Below are positions 45,001 through 51,000 of a DNA stretch of 64,000 nucleotides, piece after piece. Numbering within the stretch: position 1 is the stretch's first letter; every line of letters starts with the position of its first letter. The DNA comes from Escherichia coli O157:H7 (GTDB lineage: Bacteria; Pseudomonadota; Gammaproteobacteria; Enterobacterales; Enterobacteriaceae), in the NCBI RefSeq assembly GCF_013167455.1, contig NZ_CP038328.1, one strand, 5' to 3'. A program made the position numbers.

Positions 45001-48000
45001 ACTAATGGTGGCTTTCGACGGATCGGCGGAAACCGCTCTGAACGTCTTGTCGGTTGCACTTTCCGGCTCAAAAGAAACCGTCAGGGTGGTTGTTTTCCCT
45101 TTTGCCACCGTACCGGATGTCGGTGTCACCTTAATTGCAGTGGCCGGCGTAATTTCGCTGCGTTCTTCCGCCACGGAAGGTTTGCCCACGTTAGTGACTT
45201 TCACCGTGCGGGTGATCACTTCTTTCGCCGTCACGGCCTTACCGATACTGCTGACCCAGCCACGGAACACATCCACCGTGCCATTTGGGAAACGGATTTT
45301 ATAGGCCCGCACATCCCCGCTTTCAAACCAGCCTATAAGCCCTTTCTGACCTTCTTCTCCCGGTTTCCAGGCCAGCGTAAAACTGGTATCTCCTGCAGAC
45401 TTCTGCCCCTGCCCGGTCGCGGTCCAGTCCGCGTCTTCATCATCCAGGTAGTTATCATCGTAGGGTTCTGCCGTCATCTCGCCCGGCGTCAGATCCTTCA
45501 CCTTAGCCAGTCGCTGCCAGTCATCGTCTGACAACGGGTTTGCATAAGCATCACCCTTGCCGTTGTAAACCCACAGAGTGGTACCGGCACCTTTTACCGG
45601 CTCAAGGGGATTTGGTGTTGCCATATCGTCCTCACATCTCGTAGGTAATTTTCCACAGGAGATCTGCCGATCCCCACATCATAAACTCATCATCCCGGCG
45701 GTAGTCATACCCCTGAAGATTCATCTTCAGCAGTAATGCACTGAGCCCGGGAACTGCCTCCAGCGCAGGAAGAATTTTTTCTTCCATCCACATATCCAGT
45801 GCCGAGTCCGGTTCTTTTGCCCTGAGAAAAACCTCAATATGCAGTGTCGCCTCCCAGGTTCCCTCATCAACGAACTCGTCAGCAGCAGACGCATCTGTCA
45901 GGTAAACAGCAACAGCAGGCAGTTCCTGTTCATCAATAAAAACCGGGCGACCGTCAAACCAGCTCACCCTCTCAGAAATATTTTCTTTCAGGGCAGACAG
46001 AACTGCCGCCCGTATTTCACGGTGTTTCATACACCCTCCCAGTCATTTTCTTTTCAGCACCAGGCGTAACTGATGCGTCATGGCTTTCATCATCTGCGCC
46101 GGTAATTTTTCCCGGTACATCCGGTCCCGTTCACGTTCAAAGGTTTCTGCCAGCGGTCCGGCAGTCGTAATCTTCACCACTTCGATCGGCAGACGGTGGC
46201 GTTTCGGCCTCCCTTTGCTGTCCGCGCCGGTGGATGATGATGCCCACGGCATACGCTGCATCACATGCCAGCGTCCGTTAGCCAGCCGGGTGATAAAGGC
46301 GTCCGGGATCCGTCTTTTCCCCACAATCAGCACACTGCCGCCCCCTTTCAGGGCCGCACGCTGTCCTTTCTTTCTCCGTTTTCTGCGGGAAAGTCGAACG
46401 CGGGCCTCCCCCAGTTTGATGGCGGGCAGGTTGCCGGTATTGATGTAAACCTTTGCGTAAACCTTATCCGGTCGTGCCGGACTTAACCGGATGCGGGCAC
46501 GGATAAGACGACGGGGAACGGCCAGCTCCCTGGCAACTGAAGAGGCCGTTTTCGCAATAATGGCCCCCGCCACTCGGTTCAGTGTCGTGGCAGAGGCCCG
46601 GGGAACGGCACGGCGATCAATTGCATCCAGATTTTTCATGGCCTGCGCCAGACCTTTTATTGCCATACTCATTCCTGTTCGACAAAAATCCGGGGTTTAC
46701 CGTTGTACGTGTCATAACGGGTCACCGTCAGTGTGCGCCCCGCAAACACAACAACATCATGACGGGCCGGACGGTACCGGGCTGAAAACACCACCAGTGA
46801 CAACTGGCTGCCCGAAAGCGCCCCCATCTCCGCGGACTCTTCCTCCGGCATCACGTCGTACACGACGCCGTTAATCTCCGCCTGTTTGCCCATCACCCGA
46901 ACGGTCGCCACGTCCATCCGGCAACACATTCGCGTAAACAGATCAGACATTGATTTTTACCGCCACAGTGGCGCTGTTTGCAGGGGCATTTTCCCAGGCT
47001 ACCCCCGCTGCCACCGCACCGTCTGCAGCCAGCTGCACAACCCCGTCCTTCAGATAAACCACCGCGCCGGACTGAATGTCGTCAGCAGACTGTTTGGGCA
47101 GCAGGAACACGCCTTCGGCAAAACCGTCACCGGCCTCACCGGCAGGAATATCGGTAATGGCCACGGCCACCATACTGCCGACCACCACCGCAGCACCGCT
47201 CAGGATGGTCTGATCTCCGGCATTCACCAGTTCAATGGTGGTACCGTCCTGTACAAAATTTTTCGCCATAATGCTGTTTCTCCGGACAGCCCCTGTGGGG
47301 CTGTTTTTCAGGCATAAAAAAAGCCCTTTCGGGCAGTGATTGTGATAACGCGGTTATCAGGCCACCGACGAACGCACCAGCCCGCGCCAGTCAAGTGGTG
47401 CCACTCCGGCATCAATACGGATTTTTGTGGCAATGCCGTCAGTGGTGAAACCTTCCTGCTGATCAATGTATGGCGTGTCCACACCATCCAGCCAGGCCAC
47501 TTCAATGGTGTCAGTGCCCTGTGCCGCCGCCAGATACCAGGTTTTCGGGTCTGCCGCATCAAGACGCGCTTCTGCAATCACCTCAGCAAAGTTCTGGATA
47601 GGGTTAATGACACCGGCGTTTGCATCCGCCCCTTTCACACTGGCCGATTTGATGGTCTGGTTCGCCACCGTCTCCAGTGCCACCGGTACCAGCATAAAGG
47701 CCGGACGGATATTCAGGGCACGATCGCCTTCTTTCTGCAGGCGCATCATCTGACGGGCCGCATCCAGTCCGGAAACGGAGATCCCCCCGGTGGCAATATT
47801 TTTGTGATCGGCATGGAACAGCGCCTTACCGTCGGACAGTTTCGGGTTATCCGTCAGCACCTTGTAGACCAGGTCACCAATCGTTGCCTTCGCCGCACGC
47901 CCCATCTTCATCGGCACGTCCACCAGCATATTCAGATCATCATTGATAATGGCCTGGCGGGTGATGGAGAAAATCTCCCCGTAAGTGGCCAGTGCAATGG

Positions 48001-51000
48001 TCTCCTTGCGATCTGAGGTGGTGATGTATTTATACTCCGCCCCCTCACGAACCTGGCGCAGAGAACCAAAACCGCCCATCCCCACGCGATACGCTGTTTT
48101 GAAGTCTGACAGGCGTCCCTTACGGGTCCACTTCTGGAAGGTTTCTTCTGATTCCTCCCAGCCCTGGATCAGCCCCTTGTTCGACACATCCAGCAGAATA
48201 TTGCCAAAATCAGAGGTGCTGTGCGTCAGCGCCAGCCCGACCATCTGCATGGGGTTATAACTGGCCACCCCAATACCGCGCTCCGTCAGTGACATGCGAG
48301 CCCATTCACGCAGGGTCATCCCGTTATAGGCGTTATCCTTCTCGACATTTTCAAATCCGGCACGGGCCAGCATCGCCTGGCGGATCCCGTCCCCCACAAA
48401 ATTGCCGTTTCCGGCATAAATATGGGCCGGTGTATTTTTGTTGGTCGGCGAGGACTCCTTGCCCATTTCATTCAGCAGACGTTCACGGGCCATTTCCAGC
48501 GAACAGTCAGGATCAGCCACGCACTGTGCCTGAAGCGTCTGATAGCGACCGCCGAACATGGCAAACAGATCGTTAATGCCTGACATGCGGGCTTTCTGCT
48601 CAGCCATAACGCGGGCGCGAATGGTCGCCTCATCAGACACTGCCGGTACCGGTGATGGTTCTGTTACCGCCGGTGCAGGGATTGTCACTGTGGTATCACG
48701 CGGGGCACTGTTGCGTGGCGGAGTAATCATGTTTCGGATGGATTCCGGCATCTTTTTAAATTCCTCTGTACGTTTTGACTGAATACATGCCATTGCCTCA
48801 ACAGCGGGTGTCACCTGGTCAGCAAATCCGTGTGCCAGACATTCGGCACCGGACATCCAGGTTTCATCCGCCAGCATGGCGGCAATTTCATCGGTGGTTT
48901 TTCCGGTTTTCTGCGCATAGGCTGGCAACAGTACCGATTCGACTTTATCCAGCAAATCGGCATAACTGCGCATATCCTCAGCATCCCCGCCACTGAATCC
49001 CCATGGCTTATGGATCATCATGAAGGCATTTTCCGGCATAATGACCGTATCACCGGCCATCGCAATCACAGATGCCATCGAGGCGGCAACGCCATCCACA
49101 TACACGGTAATGGTCGCCCCCTGATTTTTCAGGGCATTAAAAATGGCGATGCCTTCAAAGACATCGCCACCCGGTGAATTGATATGGAGATTAATGTGGG
49201 TGATATCACCCAGTGCATTCAGTTCGCTGACAAACTGCTTCGCGGTAACTCCCCAGAAACCAATCTCGTCATAAATATAAATATCCGCGTCACCCGGCCC
49301 CCCAGCTTGCATCCTGAACCAGGATTTATTCTTCATGCTGGCTTTCGGTGTCGCGCTGATACTGTCGTTCAGTTCCGGCACTGTTGCCTCCTTTGTCGTT
49401 GACGGGGTCAGTATCAAAGACCAGCCCCAGTCTGCTGTTTTCATCAATTTCAGCCTTGCGGCGACGTTTGACCTCATCCGGATTGCGCCCACCGGCACGC
49501 ACCCAGTCAGATTCTGTCGCTGCACCACCCCGGATCTGAATTCTCCAGGCTTCAGCTTCCTTAACCGGGTCGATCCACGGCATCACCGGACCGGAATACG
49601 TCGCGTTATATAGCGTTTTCATCTCCACATCCGCCGGAATTTTCAGCAGACCTGCCGCAACCACCATATTCAGCCATGTCCGGTACACCGGGCGGGTTAC
49701 CGCGCCAATAAAACAGTCCTGCAGGATCAGGTAACCATCCGTGGACTCGACCAGCTCCTGCCGCTGGGCGCTGTAGGTGCCGTTATAGTTACGCGCCGCA
49801 CTGGAAAAACTCAGACGACTGCCTGCTGCCACTGCACGCAACTGGCCGTTGCGGAAAGTTTCAAGGTTGGGATTGGGACGGTCAGATTTGACCATGCCGA
49901 TATCCTCGCCCTTGCGCAAATCGTCATAAATAATACCCGGGGTGATATGGACTTCCCGCTCGGTCTCTTTGATCCCCGGATCTTCATAGTCCTGTCCGTC
50001 ACCTTTACGGATATACAGTCCCAGCGCCGCAGCAATACGCGCCGCTGTCAGTTCCGCATCCTCATACTCCTTAAGGGCACTGATCCGCATCAGCACCCCC
50101 GATAACATGGATGAGCCTCGCGTCTGATGCAGACGACGAGTGAACTTCAGGTGGATCATTTTTCCGGCAGCGATTTCTTTCGTATCACTCTGCCGGCCGC
50201 TGACCGGATAATTTTTATAAACCAGATATTTTTTCGGTCTTCCCCACTCATCAAGAAAAACCCCCTGATTCAGTCCGGCGGATTCATCAGTGCGCATGGG
50301 AACAAAATCCGGCTCCATCGCCTCAAGCCAGAATGGCACTCCCGCCGTCCGTTCCAGACCGTTTCCCGCACCACTGACCATCTGCGCAAACACTTCACCA
50401 TCCCGCAGCCAGGTCCGCAGCAGTAAACGTTCAAGCACAGGACGGGTATACTGCCCTGTCACATCCGGACTCACGGACCATTCAGCCCACAAACGGCGGA
50501 TATCCGCAGCCAGCTCAGCCGCCATTTCCCCGTTTTTTCGTAATGGCTGAGGCTCCACAATAATTCCCCTGGCACCAATCACCCGCTCTTCCAGCTTGTC
50601 AAACACACCAATCACCAGGTCATGATTGATATCCAGAAAACGGGCCTGCTCCCGCAGGGAAACCGCACCGTATTTACTGAGCTGATCAGCAGAGCGATTT
50701 TCCCGCCGGGCTTTATGTGTCCGGGTCGGTTTCACCGCCTCATAGGCCATGATTAACGCCCTTGAACGCAGTCTGGCTGCTTTCCACCCGGGGGAAAACA
50801 CGCCGATCACATCATCAATAATTGCCATTAAAACCTCGCCAGTTTAAATCCCGGTTTTCCCCGCCTGCGGCTCACCATCGCGGCAAGCCTGCGTTCCCAC
50901 TCCTGACGTCCGGCGCGGATCTGAGAAAGGCTTTCCAGCGTCAGTTGCTGCCCGTTGAAGATGACAGACTTTCCCTCCAGTACGGCCATTTCCGCTTCAC

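What the first reader, a model, noticed from the sequence alone, without database searches (positions are those of the whole stretch)
47357..49528. ClpP-like prohead protease fused to the major capsid protein, next to a lambda-type tail module
Seen in sequence: one long ORF has a serine-protease-like N-terminal half and an HK97-fold-capsid-like C-terminal half, followed by a strong terminator. Lambda instead uses separate C, Nu3, D and E genes. Inference: the head module is mosaic relative to lambda. The start codon is ambiguous (49336, 49444 or 49528).
Basis: partly seen in the sequence, partly recalled or inferred. Interest (0 to 1): 0.4.

Follow-up and report, generated by a model that had tools for sequence, protein, structure and literature searches.

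The report
Fused protease–scaffold–capsid gene, Gifsy-2 type
This is a single, intact prophage gene that makes the head-maturation protease, a scaffold segment and the capsid shell protein as one polypeptide; it is real, but it is a well-known and very common design (Salmonella phage Gifsy-2 type) with its own curated family name, found in over a third of complete E. coli genomes.

Summary

The whole protein passes NCBIfam NF045540, [quoted passage not shown] (1003.6 bits, cutoff 475). It is identical to RefSeq WP_000792357.1 and 60% identical end to end to the Gifsy-2 capsid gene product, described in the literature as a protease-coat fusion.

The mosaic inference is supported. Terminase, portal, fusion gene, cement protein and head-tail protein resemble Gifsy-2. 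Z, U, V, G, H, L and J are 41-80% identical to lambda.

Two corrections:
49444 and 49528 are unlikely.
- The "strong terminator" is only a 4-bp GC stem plus U7, although a hairpin at this position is conserved in related phages.

Verdict: already known, low interest.

The parts
47357..49381 (-). Fusion gene for protease, scaffold and major capsid protein. It is 674 aa / 73.1 kDa from GTG 49381, or 659 aa / 71.5 kDa from ATG 49336 as in RefSeq WP_000792357.1. Residue numbers in the rows below count from GTG 49381.
   Evidence: NF045540 scores 1003.6 bits (cutoff 475). The product is identical to the PGAP protein and 60% identical over its full length to the Gifsy-2 capsid gene product.
48782..49333 (-). 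ClpP-fold serine protease domain (residues 17-200). Catalytic Ser101 is codon 49081-49079 and His124 is codon 49012-49010. Glu173 (48865-48863) sits at the position of the ClpP Asp.
48632..48781 (-). Hypervariable, Pro/Ala-rich, indel-rich linker (residues 201-250). It begins with the conserved motif D-L-S-x-F/Y-x-N-x-P (Pro212 in 91/98).
   Evidence: Lowest conservation and most insertions in the 98-sequence alignment. AF2 pLDDT is below 50 for residues 223-247.
48452..48631 (-). Three-helix scaffold-like central domain (residues 251-310).
   Evidence: AF2 places helices at 251-274, 281-289 and 295-308 with pLDDT about 89-97. Conservation is moderate. It aligns collinearly with the Nu3 part of lambda C in hhalign, but only weakly when tested alone (E 0.005, probability 6.8%).
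48401..48451 (-). Flexible, variable junction (residues 311-327). This is the inferred zone of maturation cleavage that frees the capsid protein.
   Evidence: AF2 pLDDT is 54-63, and below 50 at residues 320-325. The columns are gap-rich and variable in the family alignment. The cleavage itself is inferred, not shown.
47360..48400 (-). HK97-fold major capsid protein domain (residues 328-674, about 38 kDa).
47316..47334 (-). Terminator-like element: GCCC-GAAA-GGGC stem-loop followed by U7.
   Evidence: It was not reported by the consensus scan. A hairpin with a U tract lies at the same position in Ayreon (annotated there as a terminator), Gifsy-2 and BR200a.
47286..47304 (-). Second 8-bp GC-rich hairpin (ACAGCCCC-ACA-GGGGCUGU) without a U tract, just upstream of the cement gene ribosome-binding site.
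   Evidence: Ayreon has the same stem. Gifsy-2 has a hairpin of different sequence at the same place.
46943..47269 (-). Head cement/decoration protein (108 aa, 10.7 kDa).
   Evidence: Pfam Phage_cement_2 6.6e-19. phrog_122 'head decoration' 4e-39. It is 54% identical to the gene immediately downstream of the Gifsy-2 capsid gene.
49326..50828 (-). Portal protein (lambda-family portal). Its last 11 nt overlap the fusion gene if that starts at ATG 49336, or its last 56 nt if that starts at GTG 49381.
   Evidence: Phage_portal_2 2.8e-80. It is 64% identical to the Gifsy-2 portal and 21% to lambda B.
51037..53160 (-). Terminase large subunit (gpA type).
   Evidence: GpA_ATPase and GpA_nuclease domains. 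It is 67% identical to Gifsy-2 TerL and 24% to lambda A.
46669..46950 (-). 93-aa head-tail joining candidate. It is the last gene of the Gifsy-2-type head block.
   Evidence: Pfam 'Gifsy-2' PF13856 6.7e-14, plus a weak Phage_attach hit. It is 39% identical to Gifsy-2 STM1035.
35339..46672 (-). Lambda-type tail module (Z, U, V, G, T-like, H, M, L, K, I, J).

Best explanation
The gene encodes the tripartite capsid precursor of a Gifsy-2-type lambdoid head in an E. coli O157:H7 prophage inserted at ydfJ.

One polypeptide of about 72-73 kDa carries, in order:
- a ClpP-fold Ser-His protease;
- a disordered Pro/Ala-rich linker;
- a small three-helix scaffold-like domain;
- an HK97-fold major capsid protein.

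Inferred mechanism, by homology with Gifsy-2 and the general HK97/lambda pathway:
1. The full-length precursor assembles on the lambda-family portal into a procapsid, with the protease and scaffold parts inside.
2. The tethered protease cuts the linker/junction region and digests itself and the scaffold.
3. This leaves the C-terminal capsid protein of about 38-40 kDa.
4. The shell expands when the gpA-type terminase packages DNA.
5. Trimers of the 108-aa cement protein, encoded immediately downstream, bind and stabilise the shell.

Shown here: the domain architecture, the conserved catalytic residues, the folds, family membership, synteny, and the mosaic join to a lambda-type tail.

Inferred, not shown: assembly, the cleavage sites, stoichiometry and cement binding.
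For: - The ORF is uninterrupted.
- Pfam finds CLP_protease plus Phage_capsid_4.
- NF045540 matches full length at 1003.6 bits against a cutoff of 475. phrog_133 scores 1154.9 bits.
- The protein is identical to RefSeq WP_000792357.1, annotated 'ClpP-like prohead protease/major capsid protein fusion protein'.
- It is 60% identical over residues 1-673 to residues 1-696 of the Gifsy-2 capsid gene product, with the same neighbours (portal upstream, cement protein downstream).
[quoted passage not shown] 2010). [quoted passage not shown]
- Ser101 and His124 are invariant in 98 homologues of 35-77% identity.
- The AF2 model has mean pLDDT 88.6, with a disordered 223-247 linker and a low-confidence 311-327 junction.
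- Near-identical genes occur in induced or isolated phages: ASU11 from mitomycin C induction at 99.8%, and 1720a-02 and Stx2 phages at 97-99%.
- 2010 of 5426 complete E. coli genomes carry a copy covering at least 80% of the query.
Against: - No experiment on this particular protein was available. Cleavage sites, the fate of the protease and the role of the central domain are inferred.
- The Gifsy-2 paper itself is not held in the library, so its details (T=7 capsid, about 200-residue central domain, 12-kDa decoration protein) rest on my recollection plus citing papers.
- Homology of the central domain to a known scaffold (lambda Nu3) is only weakly supported when tested alone.
- Nothing shows that this prophage as a whole is inducible. 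Its T-like tail gene is flagged partial by PGAP in an identical prophage.
Confidence: 0.9

Rival explanations
1. Nested-gene model. As well as the full-length product, an internal in-frame start (ATG 48751, Met211 of the 674-aa numbering, just after the protease domain) yields a protease-less scaffold-capsid protein. This would mirror Nu3 nested inside lambda C, and would keep protease copy number below capsid copy number.
For: The Met at this position is shared with Gifsy-2, BR200a and the closest relatives (K-M-P-E / H-M-P-Q). A weak AGGA lies 10 nt upstream. Lambda does use a nested start for Nu3.
Against: Across the family, Met is not among the five commonest residues at this column (A 22, V 21, I 13, P 13, T 9 of 98). 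It is seen only in close relatives. The Shine-Dalgarno match is weak with poor spacing. No data show a second product.
Confidence: 0.07
2. The ORF is an artefactual or decayed fusion: two originally separate genes (protease and capsid) joined by a frameshift or lost stop in a defective prophage, and non-functional as a fusion.
For: Prophages in O157 are often defective. The identical gene in Sp15/VT1-Sakai is disrupted by IS629. Sporadic frameshift fusions of portal to this gene do exist in databases.
Against: The fused architecture is collinear in 98 diverse homologues down to 35% identity, and in a curated full-length family model. It occurs in isolated or induced phages and in Gifsy-2, which is documented as a fusion. 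There is no stop or frame break.
Confidence: 0.01
3. The ClpP-like domain is catalytically dead and serves only as an internal scaffold, with maturation cleavage done by a host or other phage protease.
For: The third residue of the ClpP triad is Glu rather than Asp at the aligned position and is not invariant (82/98). Tethered monomers cannot obviously form the ClpP heptameric ring.
Against: Ser101 and His124 are invariant in 98/98 sequences, and the surrounding motifs (GxAASMAS, MIHxP) are the most conserved block of the protein. No other protease gene lies in the head module.
Confidence: 0.02

Closest known systems
Salmonella phage Gifsy-2 tripartite capsid gene (STM1034.3n.Gifsy2, YP_001700678.1; Effantin et al. 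2010, Virology 402:355)
   Same: - Same order of ClpP-like protease, central segment and capsid protein in one ORF.
- 60% identity end to end.
- Same neighbours: lambda-family portal upstream, Phage_cement_2 protein downstream (54% identical), then a PF13856 protein.
- A similar hairpin pair lies in the downstream intergenic region.
   Different: - 674/659 aa here against 696 aa in Gifsy-2.
- The linker differs in length and sequence.
- Here the head block is joined to a tail module closer to lambda (V 80%, L 77%) than to Gifsy-2 (V 56%).
NCBIfam NF045540 'ClpP-like prohead protease/major capsid protein fusion protein' (= phrog_133); RefSeq WP_000792357.1
   Same: Passes the curated cutoff with full-length coverage. 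The amino-acid sequence is identical to WP_000792357.1.
   Different: Nothing of substance. Only the start-codon choice varies: database entries of 659, 674 and 706 aa exist for the same gene.
Phage lambda head genes C / Nu3 / D / E
   Same: - Same order of functions after the portal: protease, then scaffold, then shell protein, plus a small decoration protein.
- Lambda C already fuses protease and scaffold (Nu3 is nested in C).
   Different: - Lambda has separate genes.
- Lambda C is an S49 (SppA-type) peptidase, not S14 ClpP-type.
- No detectable sequence similarity to E (hhalign probability 0.2%) or to D.
- In lambda the decoration gene lies before the capsid gene; here it lies after.
Phage HK97 gp4 protease / gp5 (delta domain plus capsid protein)
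   Same: HK97-fold shell protein made as a precursor whose N-terminal scaffold-like part is removed by a phage protease. The fold match to HK97-like capsid proteins and encapsulins is shown. The pathway is from established knowledge.
   Different: In HK97 only the scaffold (delta domain) is fused to the capsid protein. The protease is a separate gene of a different family. HK97 uses covalent chainmail rather than a cement protein (established knowledge; not tested here).
NCBIfam NF045541 'prohead protease/major capsid protein fusion protein' (scaf_prot_MCP2)
   Same: The central and capsid parts align (ORF residues 262-720 to profile positions 168-631).
   Different: The score of 418 bits is below the 525-bit cutoff, and the N-terminal protease part does not align. 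This is a sister fusion family with a different protease. The window protein is not a member.

Membership tests
NF045540 ClpP-like prohead protease/major capsid protein fusion protein (Gifsy-2 type) | Whole-protein score above the curated cutoff, with end-to-end coverage of the model | tested here: met
   1003.6 bits against a cutoff of 475, covering profile positions 2-651 of 652 in one stretch.
NF045540 ClpP-like prohead protease/major capsid protein fusion protein (Gifsy-2 type) | N-terminal ClpP-fold (S14-like) protease domain with catalytic Ser and His | tested here: met
NF045540 ClpP-like prohead protease/major capsid protein fusion protein (Gifsy-2 type) | C-terminal HK97-fold major capsid protein domain in the same reading frame | tested here: met
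NF045540 ClpP-like prohead protease/major capsid protein fusion protein (Gifsy-2 type) | Position in a head-morphogenesis operon: directly after the portal gene and followed by a cement/decoration gene | tested here: met
   The portal gene ends at 49326 and overlaps the start of the fusion gene. A Phage_cement_2 gene lies at 46943-47269. Gifsy-2, BR200a, Ayreon and ASU11 have the same order.
NF045540 ClpP-like prohead protease/major capsid protein fusion protein (Gifsy-2 type) | Proteolytic release of the C-terminal capsid protein during head maturation | not testable with these tools
   This needs virion mass spectrometry or N-terminal sequencing. Only a predicted flexible junction at residues 311-327 was found.
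Lambda-type head (C/Nu3/D/E) | Separate S49 protease-scaffold gene, gpD decoration gene and gpE capsid gene | tested here: not met
   BLASTP gives no hit to lambda C, Nu3, D or E. hhalign against E gives probability 0.2%. Only the protease fold is distantly shared. A true lambda-type head at the same chromosomal site in another O157 strain looks quite different.
Lambda-type tail module | Homologues of Z, U, V, G/T, H, M, L, K, I and J in lambda order | tested here: met
   41-80% identity to lambda Z, U, V, G, H, L and J, in the same order.
NF045541 prohead protease/MCP fusion (type 2) | Whole-protein score above the curated cutoff | tested here: not met
   418 bits against a cutoff of 525. Only residues 262-720 align.

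The most novel reading that the evidence does not exclude
The central three-helix domain may be a divergent homologue of the lambda Nu3 scaffold. The fused gene would then be collinear with lambda C (protease), then Nu3 (scaffold), then a capsid protein. In that reading, lambda's protease-scaffold gene and the Gifsy-2-type tripartite gene descend from one protease-scaffold ancestor, to which a capsid gene was later fused (or from which it was split). The conserved terminator-like hairpin pair after the capsid gene would then be a shared device for setting capsid-to-cement/tail expression ratios inside a Q-antiterminated operon. The evidence is a collinear hhalign match of the family profile to lambda C residues 123-433 (probability 86.6%). 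The scaffold part alone scores only E 0.005, probability 6.8%.
Probability: 0.25. Interest if true: 0.25.

Novelty: already known. Interest (0 to 1): 0.1.

Why it matters
It matters little for discovery. The architecture was described for Gifsy-2 in 2010, has curated NCBIfam and PHROG models, and occurs in about 37% of complete E. coli genomes, including Stx-converting phages.

The practical value is for annotation:
- Automated names for this gene vary widely ('Clp protease ClpP', 'Nu3', 'head-tail preconnector protease C', 'major capsid protein').
- Annotated starts vary between 648 and 722 aa.
- The identical gene is IS629-disrupted in the Stx1 prophage of the reference O157 strains.

No close relative of this capsid protein has a solved structure by sequence search. 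The best hit is E 2e-5. A high-resolution structure of how a tethered ClpP-fold protease works inside a procapsid therefore remains a reasonable open structural question.

Tried and rejected
- The consensus terminator scan over 46800-49700 found nothing after the stop codon. Manual reading and RNAfold were needed.
- The Effantin 2010 paper could not be retrieved. I relied on two papers that cite it.
- A literature search for 'prohead protease + ClpP + fusion + major capsid protein' gave nothing useful.
- phmmer of the cement protein against PDB sequences gave only chance hits.
- The internal-start (nested gene) idea was tested by column counts. The Met is confined to close relatives, so I rate it low.
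- The 1159-aa 'portal-protease-capsid' proteins looked like a possible programmed frameshift. Their junctions lie at six or more different positions, so they are sporadic frameshifts or sequencing errors.
- Homology of the central domain to lambda Nu3, tested alone, was inconclusive. No homology to lambda E was found.
They have no Shine-Dalgarno sequence or only a 4-base one, lie deep inside the portal gene, and the extension is absent or unconserved in the family alignment.
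Full report
**What is in the sequence**

Listing ORFs over 44000-53000 shows one uninterrupted minus-strand ORF at 47357..49528, 723 codons from the first possible start. It lies between a 500-aa ORF (49326..50828) and a 108-aa ORF (46943..47269).

Domain searches on the translation are unambiguous.
- Pfam finds CLP_protease at ORF residues 95-240 (E 1.9e-36) and Phage_capsid_4 at 433-720 (E 9.4e-56). A weaker Mu-like_gpT hit overlaps the latter.
- NCBIfam model NF045540, named [quoted passage not shown], matches in a single collinear stretch. It covers profile positions 2-651 of 652 at 1003.6 bits against a curated cutoff of 475.
- The domain model NF045542 ("head maturation protease, ClpP-related") also passes.
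- PHROGs gives phrog_133 at 1154.9 bits over the whole length.

That scenario was two genes separated by an unnoticed stop or frameshift, or no protease domain.

**Where it comes from and how common it is**

The left part of the window is E. coli O157:H7 chromosome, with dcp, uxaB, sad and ydeA at 100% identity. The prophage sits next to ydfJ.

- The 2.4-kb region around the gene matches 2069 of 5426 complete E. coli genomes. Of these, 2010 cover at least 80% of it, with up to six copies per genome.
- RefSeq/PGAP annotates a 99.9%-identical prophage in strain 2015C-3163. The gene there is WP_000792357.1, [quoted passage not shown], 659 aa.
- The window translation from ATG 49336 is identical to that protein.
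- Near-identical genes occur in phage ASU11 (from mitomycin C induction; 99.8%), phage 1720a-02, and several Stx2a/Stx2d-converting phages (97-99%). A 78%-identical group includes Ayreon, mEp460, phi458 and others.
- An exhaustive search of cluster representatives returned 8226 representatives at E <= 1e-30. Most of the best 150 are 640-730-aa proteins matching end to end at 35-50% identity. The fused architecture is therefore widespread.

**Closest characterised relative**

The Gifsy-2 record (NC_010393) places a 696-aa "Clp protease involved in capsid processing" directly after the portal gene, followed by a 107-aa gene.

- The window protein is 60% identical to the Gifsy-2 protein over residues 1-673 against 1-696.
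- The downstream 108-aa protein is 54% identical to its Gifsy-2 counterpart.
[quoted passage not shown] 2010).
- The Effantin paper itself is not held. My recollection is that it reports a T=7 capsid, a central region of about 200 residues with a suspected scaffolding role, and a 12-kDa lambda-gpD-like decoration protein. That recollection is not a tool result.

**Anatomy of the protein** (numbering from GTG 49381, 674 aa)

I aligned the protein with 97 homologues of 34-77% identity. Conservation along that alignment defines four zones:
- a conserved block at residues 26-200;
- a hypervariable, indel-rich, Pro/Ala-rich stretch at 201-250;
- a moderately conserved stretch at 251-350;
- a well conserved block at 351-674.

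Ser101 and His124 are invariant in all 98 sequences. They align with the catalytic Ser and His of solved ClpP. The position of the ClpP Asp is Glu173, present in 82 of 98.

AlphaFold2 on this alignment gave mean pLDDT 88.6. The model shows:
- a confident alpha/beta domain at residues 17-200;
- disorder at 223-247;
- three confident helices at 251-308;
- a low-confidence junction at 311-327;
- a confident domain from 328 to the end, with a long spine helix (483-511) and E-loop-like strands.

The gene is thus tripartite: protease, then linker plus helical segment, then HK97-fold shell protein. The predicted mature shell protein is about 38-40 kDa.

**Start codon**

A scan of all in-frame starts shows that the only strong Shine-Dalgarno sequence in the entire ORF (AAGGAGG, 5-nt spacer) precedes GTG 49381. 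ATG 49336 has no Shine-Dalgarno match of 4 bases or more.

Evidence for GTG 49381:
- In Ayreon (78% DNA identity) the AGGAGG-N5-GTG is conserved. The codon corresponding to ATG 49336 is CCG, and there is no other in-frame start before the conserved SWF motif.
- The Gifsy-2 annotation starts M-P-E-V, aligned with V-P-E-L at 49381.
- NCBI itself has 674/675-aa versions of the protein.

Evidence for ATG 49336:
- Most distant family members begin only 2-5 residues before the conserved (S/N/T)-W-(Y/F) motif, exactly like M-K-N-K-S-W-F from ATG 49336.
- That ATG lies 5 nt upstream of the portal stop codon (ATGAAGAATAA). This geometry suits termination-reinitiation coupling.

The 15 extra residues are unconserved and predicted disordered, so either start would give a working protein. 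The starts at 49444 and 49528 lie 116-200 nt inside the portal gene, have weak or no Shine-Dalgarno sequences, and correspond to no conserved protein sequence. I consider them unlikely.

The N-terminal part of the protein is expected to be destroyed on maturation. Sequencing the virion capsid protein would therefore map the cleavage site, not the start codon.

**The "strong terminator"**

After the TGA (47359-47357) the transcript strand reads GCCC-GAAA-GGGC followed by seven U (47334-47316). An 8-bp GC-rich hairpin without a U tract follows (47304-47286). After that come the GGAG and ATG of the cement gene.
- The consensus scan, which needs a stem of at least 5 bp, did not report the first hairpin.
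- The fold energy of the region is not unusual (z -1.65).
- "Strong" is therefore not justified.

The arrangement is nonetheless conserved in position. Ayreon has the same two hairpins, the first annotated there as a terminator. Gifsy-2 has GGCCC-UGAC-GGGCU plus U6, and a second hairpin of unrelated sequence. Pseudomonas phage BR200a has a 9-bp terminator.

The downstream cement, head-tail and tail genes must still be expressed from the same late operon. The element is therefore more likely a partial terminator or an mRNA-stabilising 3' structure than a full stop. That is an inference.

**Mosaicism**

BLASTP of the module against lambda and Gifsy-2 gives two clear blocks.

| Block | Genes | Identity to Gifsy-2 | Identity to lambda |
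|---|---|---|---|
| Head | TerS, TerL, W-like, portal, fusion, cement, 93-aa protein | 36-67% | 24% to A, 21% to B; no hit to Nu1, W, C, Nu3, D, E, FI, FII |

- Pfam agrees that terminase and portal are lambda-family (GpA_ATPase/GpA_nuclease, Phage_portal_2). The cement protein is Phage_cement_2 rather than lambda gpD.
- A natural control exists. O157:H7 strain 17B6-2 has a prophage at the same ydfJ site. Its tail-fibre-to-H region is 99% identical to window 27176-43897, and its G-V-U' region is 92% identical to 44110-45959.
- Homology then stops at about 45960, inside U. That prophage's head is a genuine lambda type: nohD, A, W, B, S49 peptidase, D, E, FI, FII.
The lambda record confirms separate C, Nu3 (nested in C), D and E genes.

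**Distant relationship to lambda C**

A profile of the central domain alone against Nu3 gives the same register but only E 0.005, probability 6.8%. Homology of the scaffold-like segment to Nu3 is therefore suggestive, not established. No relationship to lambda E was detected by sequence.

**How it most likely works**

Shown here: one polypeptide with an intact Ser-His ClpP-fold protease, a flexible linker, a helical segment and an HK97-fold shell domain. It is encoded between a portal gene and a cement-protein gene, and it is a member of the Gifsy-2 family.

Inferred from Gifsy-2 and from the general HK97/lambda pathway:
1. The precursor co-assembles on the portal, with the N-terminal parts inside.
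2. The protease cleaves in the linker/junction regions and degrades itself and the scaffold.
3. The shell expands on DNA packaging.
4. Cement trimers bind the expanded shell.

Rivals, all rated low:
- An internal start at ATG 48751 giving a protease-less product. The Met is confined to close relatives and the Shine-Dalgarno match is weak.
- An artefactual fusion. The fused architecture is conserved family-wide.
- A catalytically dead protease domain. The Ser and His are invariant.

**Verdict**

The start-codon list and the strength of the terminator need correction. The feature is an ordinary member of a named, curated and experimentally characterised family. Novelty: already known. Interest: low.

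Noticed in passing
window 47357-49381; compare NC_002695.2 2911072-2914785 and AP000400.1 23082-26795: The reference O157:H7 strains Sakai and EDL933 carry a 100%-identical copy of this gene in the Stx1 prophage (Sp15 / VT1-Sakai). That copy is split by an IS629/IS1203 insertion of about 1.3 kb, so that prophage's capsid gene is disrupted. The copy in this window is intact.
   Followed up: partly
window 27176-45959, compared with L007 (NZ_CP038414.1 2910000-2947000): Another O157:H7 strain has, at the same ydfJ site, a prophage with a 92-99% identical tail region but a true lambda-type head (nohD, A, W, B, S49 peptidase C, D, E, FI, FII). The recombination breakpoint lies at about window 45960, inside gene U.
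   Followed up: yes
window 49326-49528 (overlap of the portal 3' end with the open frame upstream of the fusion gene): Protein databases hold proteins of about 1159 aa that join portal, protease and capsid protein (P0071-P0086). Their junctions lie at six or more different positions within the last 75 or so portal codons. They look like sporadic 1-nt frameshifts or sequencing errors, made possible by the long open alternative frame, and not like programmed frameshifting.
   Followed up: yes
window 44101-44409 (-): The T-like tail assembly ORF is only 102 aa, against 144 aa for lambda T and 137 aa in strain 17B6-2. PGAP flags it 'partial, missing C-terminus' in the identical prophage. The segment 43897-44110 has no similarity to the 17B6-2 prophage. 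This may be a small mosaic patch or a defect in the G-T frameshift product.
   Followed up: no
window 46669-46950 (-): The 93-aa gene after the cement gene belongs to Pfam 'Gifsy-2' (PF13856, described as an 'ATP-binding sugar transporter'). PGAP names it 'DNA breaking-rejoining protein'. Its position, its phrog_153 match and a weak Phage_attach (FII-like) hit suggest instead a head-tail joining protein. The database names look like misnomers.
   Followed up: partly
window 48743-48769 (-), residues 204-212 of the fusion protein: A conserved motif D-L-S-x-F/Y-x-N-x-P (Pro212 in 91 of 98 homologues) sits exactly at the end of the protease domain, before the hypervariable linker. It may be a cleavage or docking site. 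This was not tested.
   Followed up: no
window 31000-33140 (-): Three consecutive DUF1076-domain genes lie between the tail-fibre genes and the chromosomal ydfJ gene at the prophage end. They are annotated as such in the matching O157 genome. They look like prophage cargo genes and were not examined.
   Followed up: no
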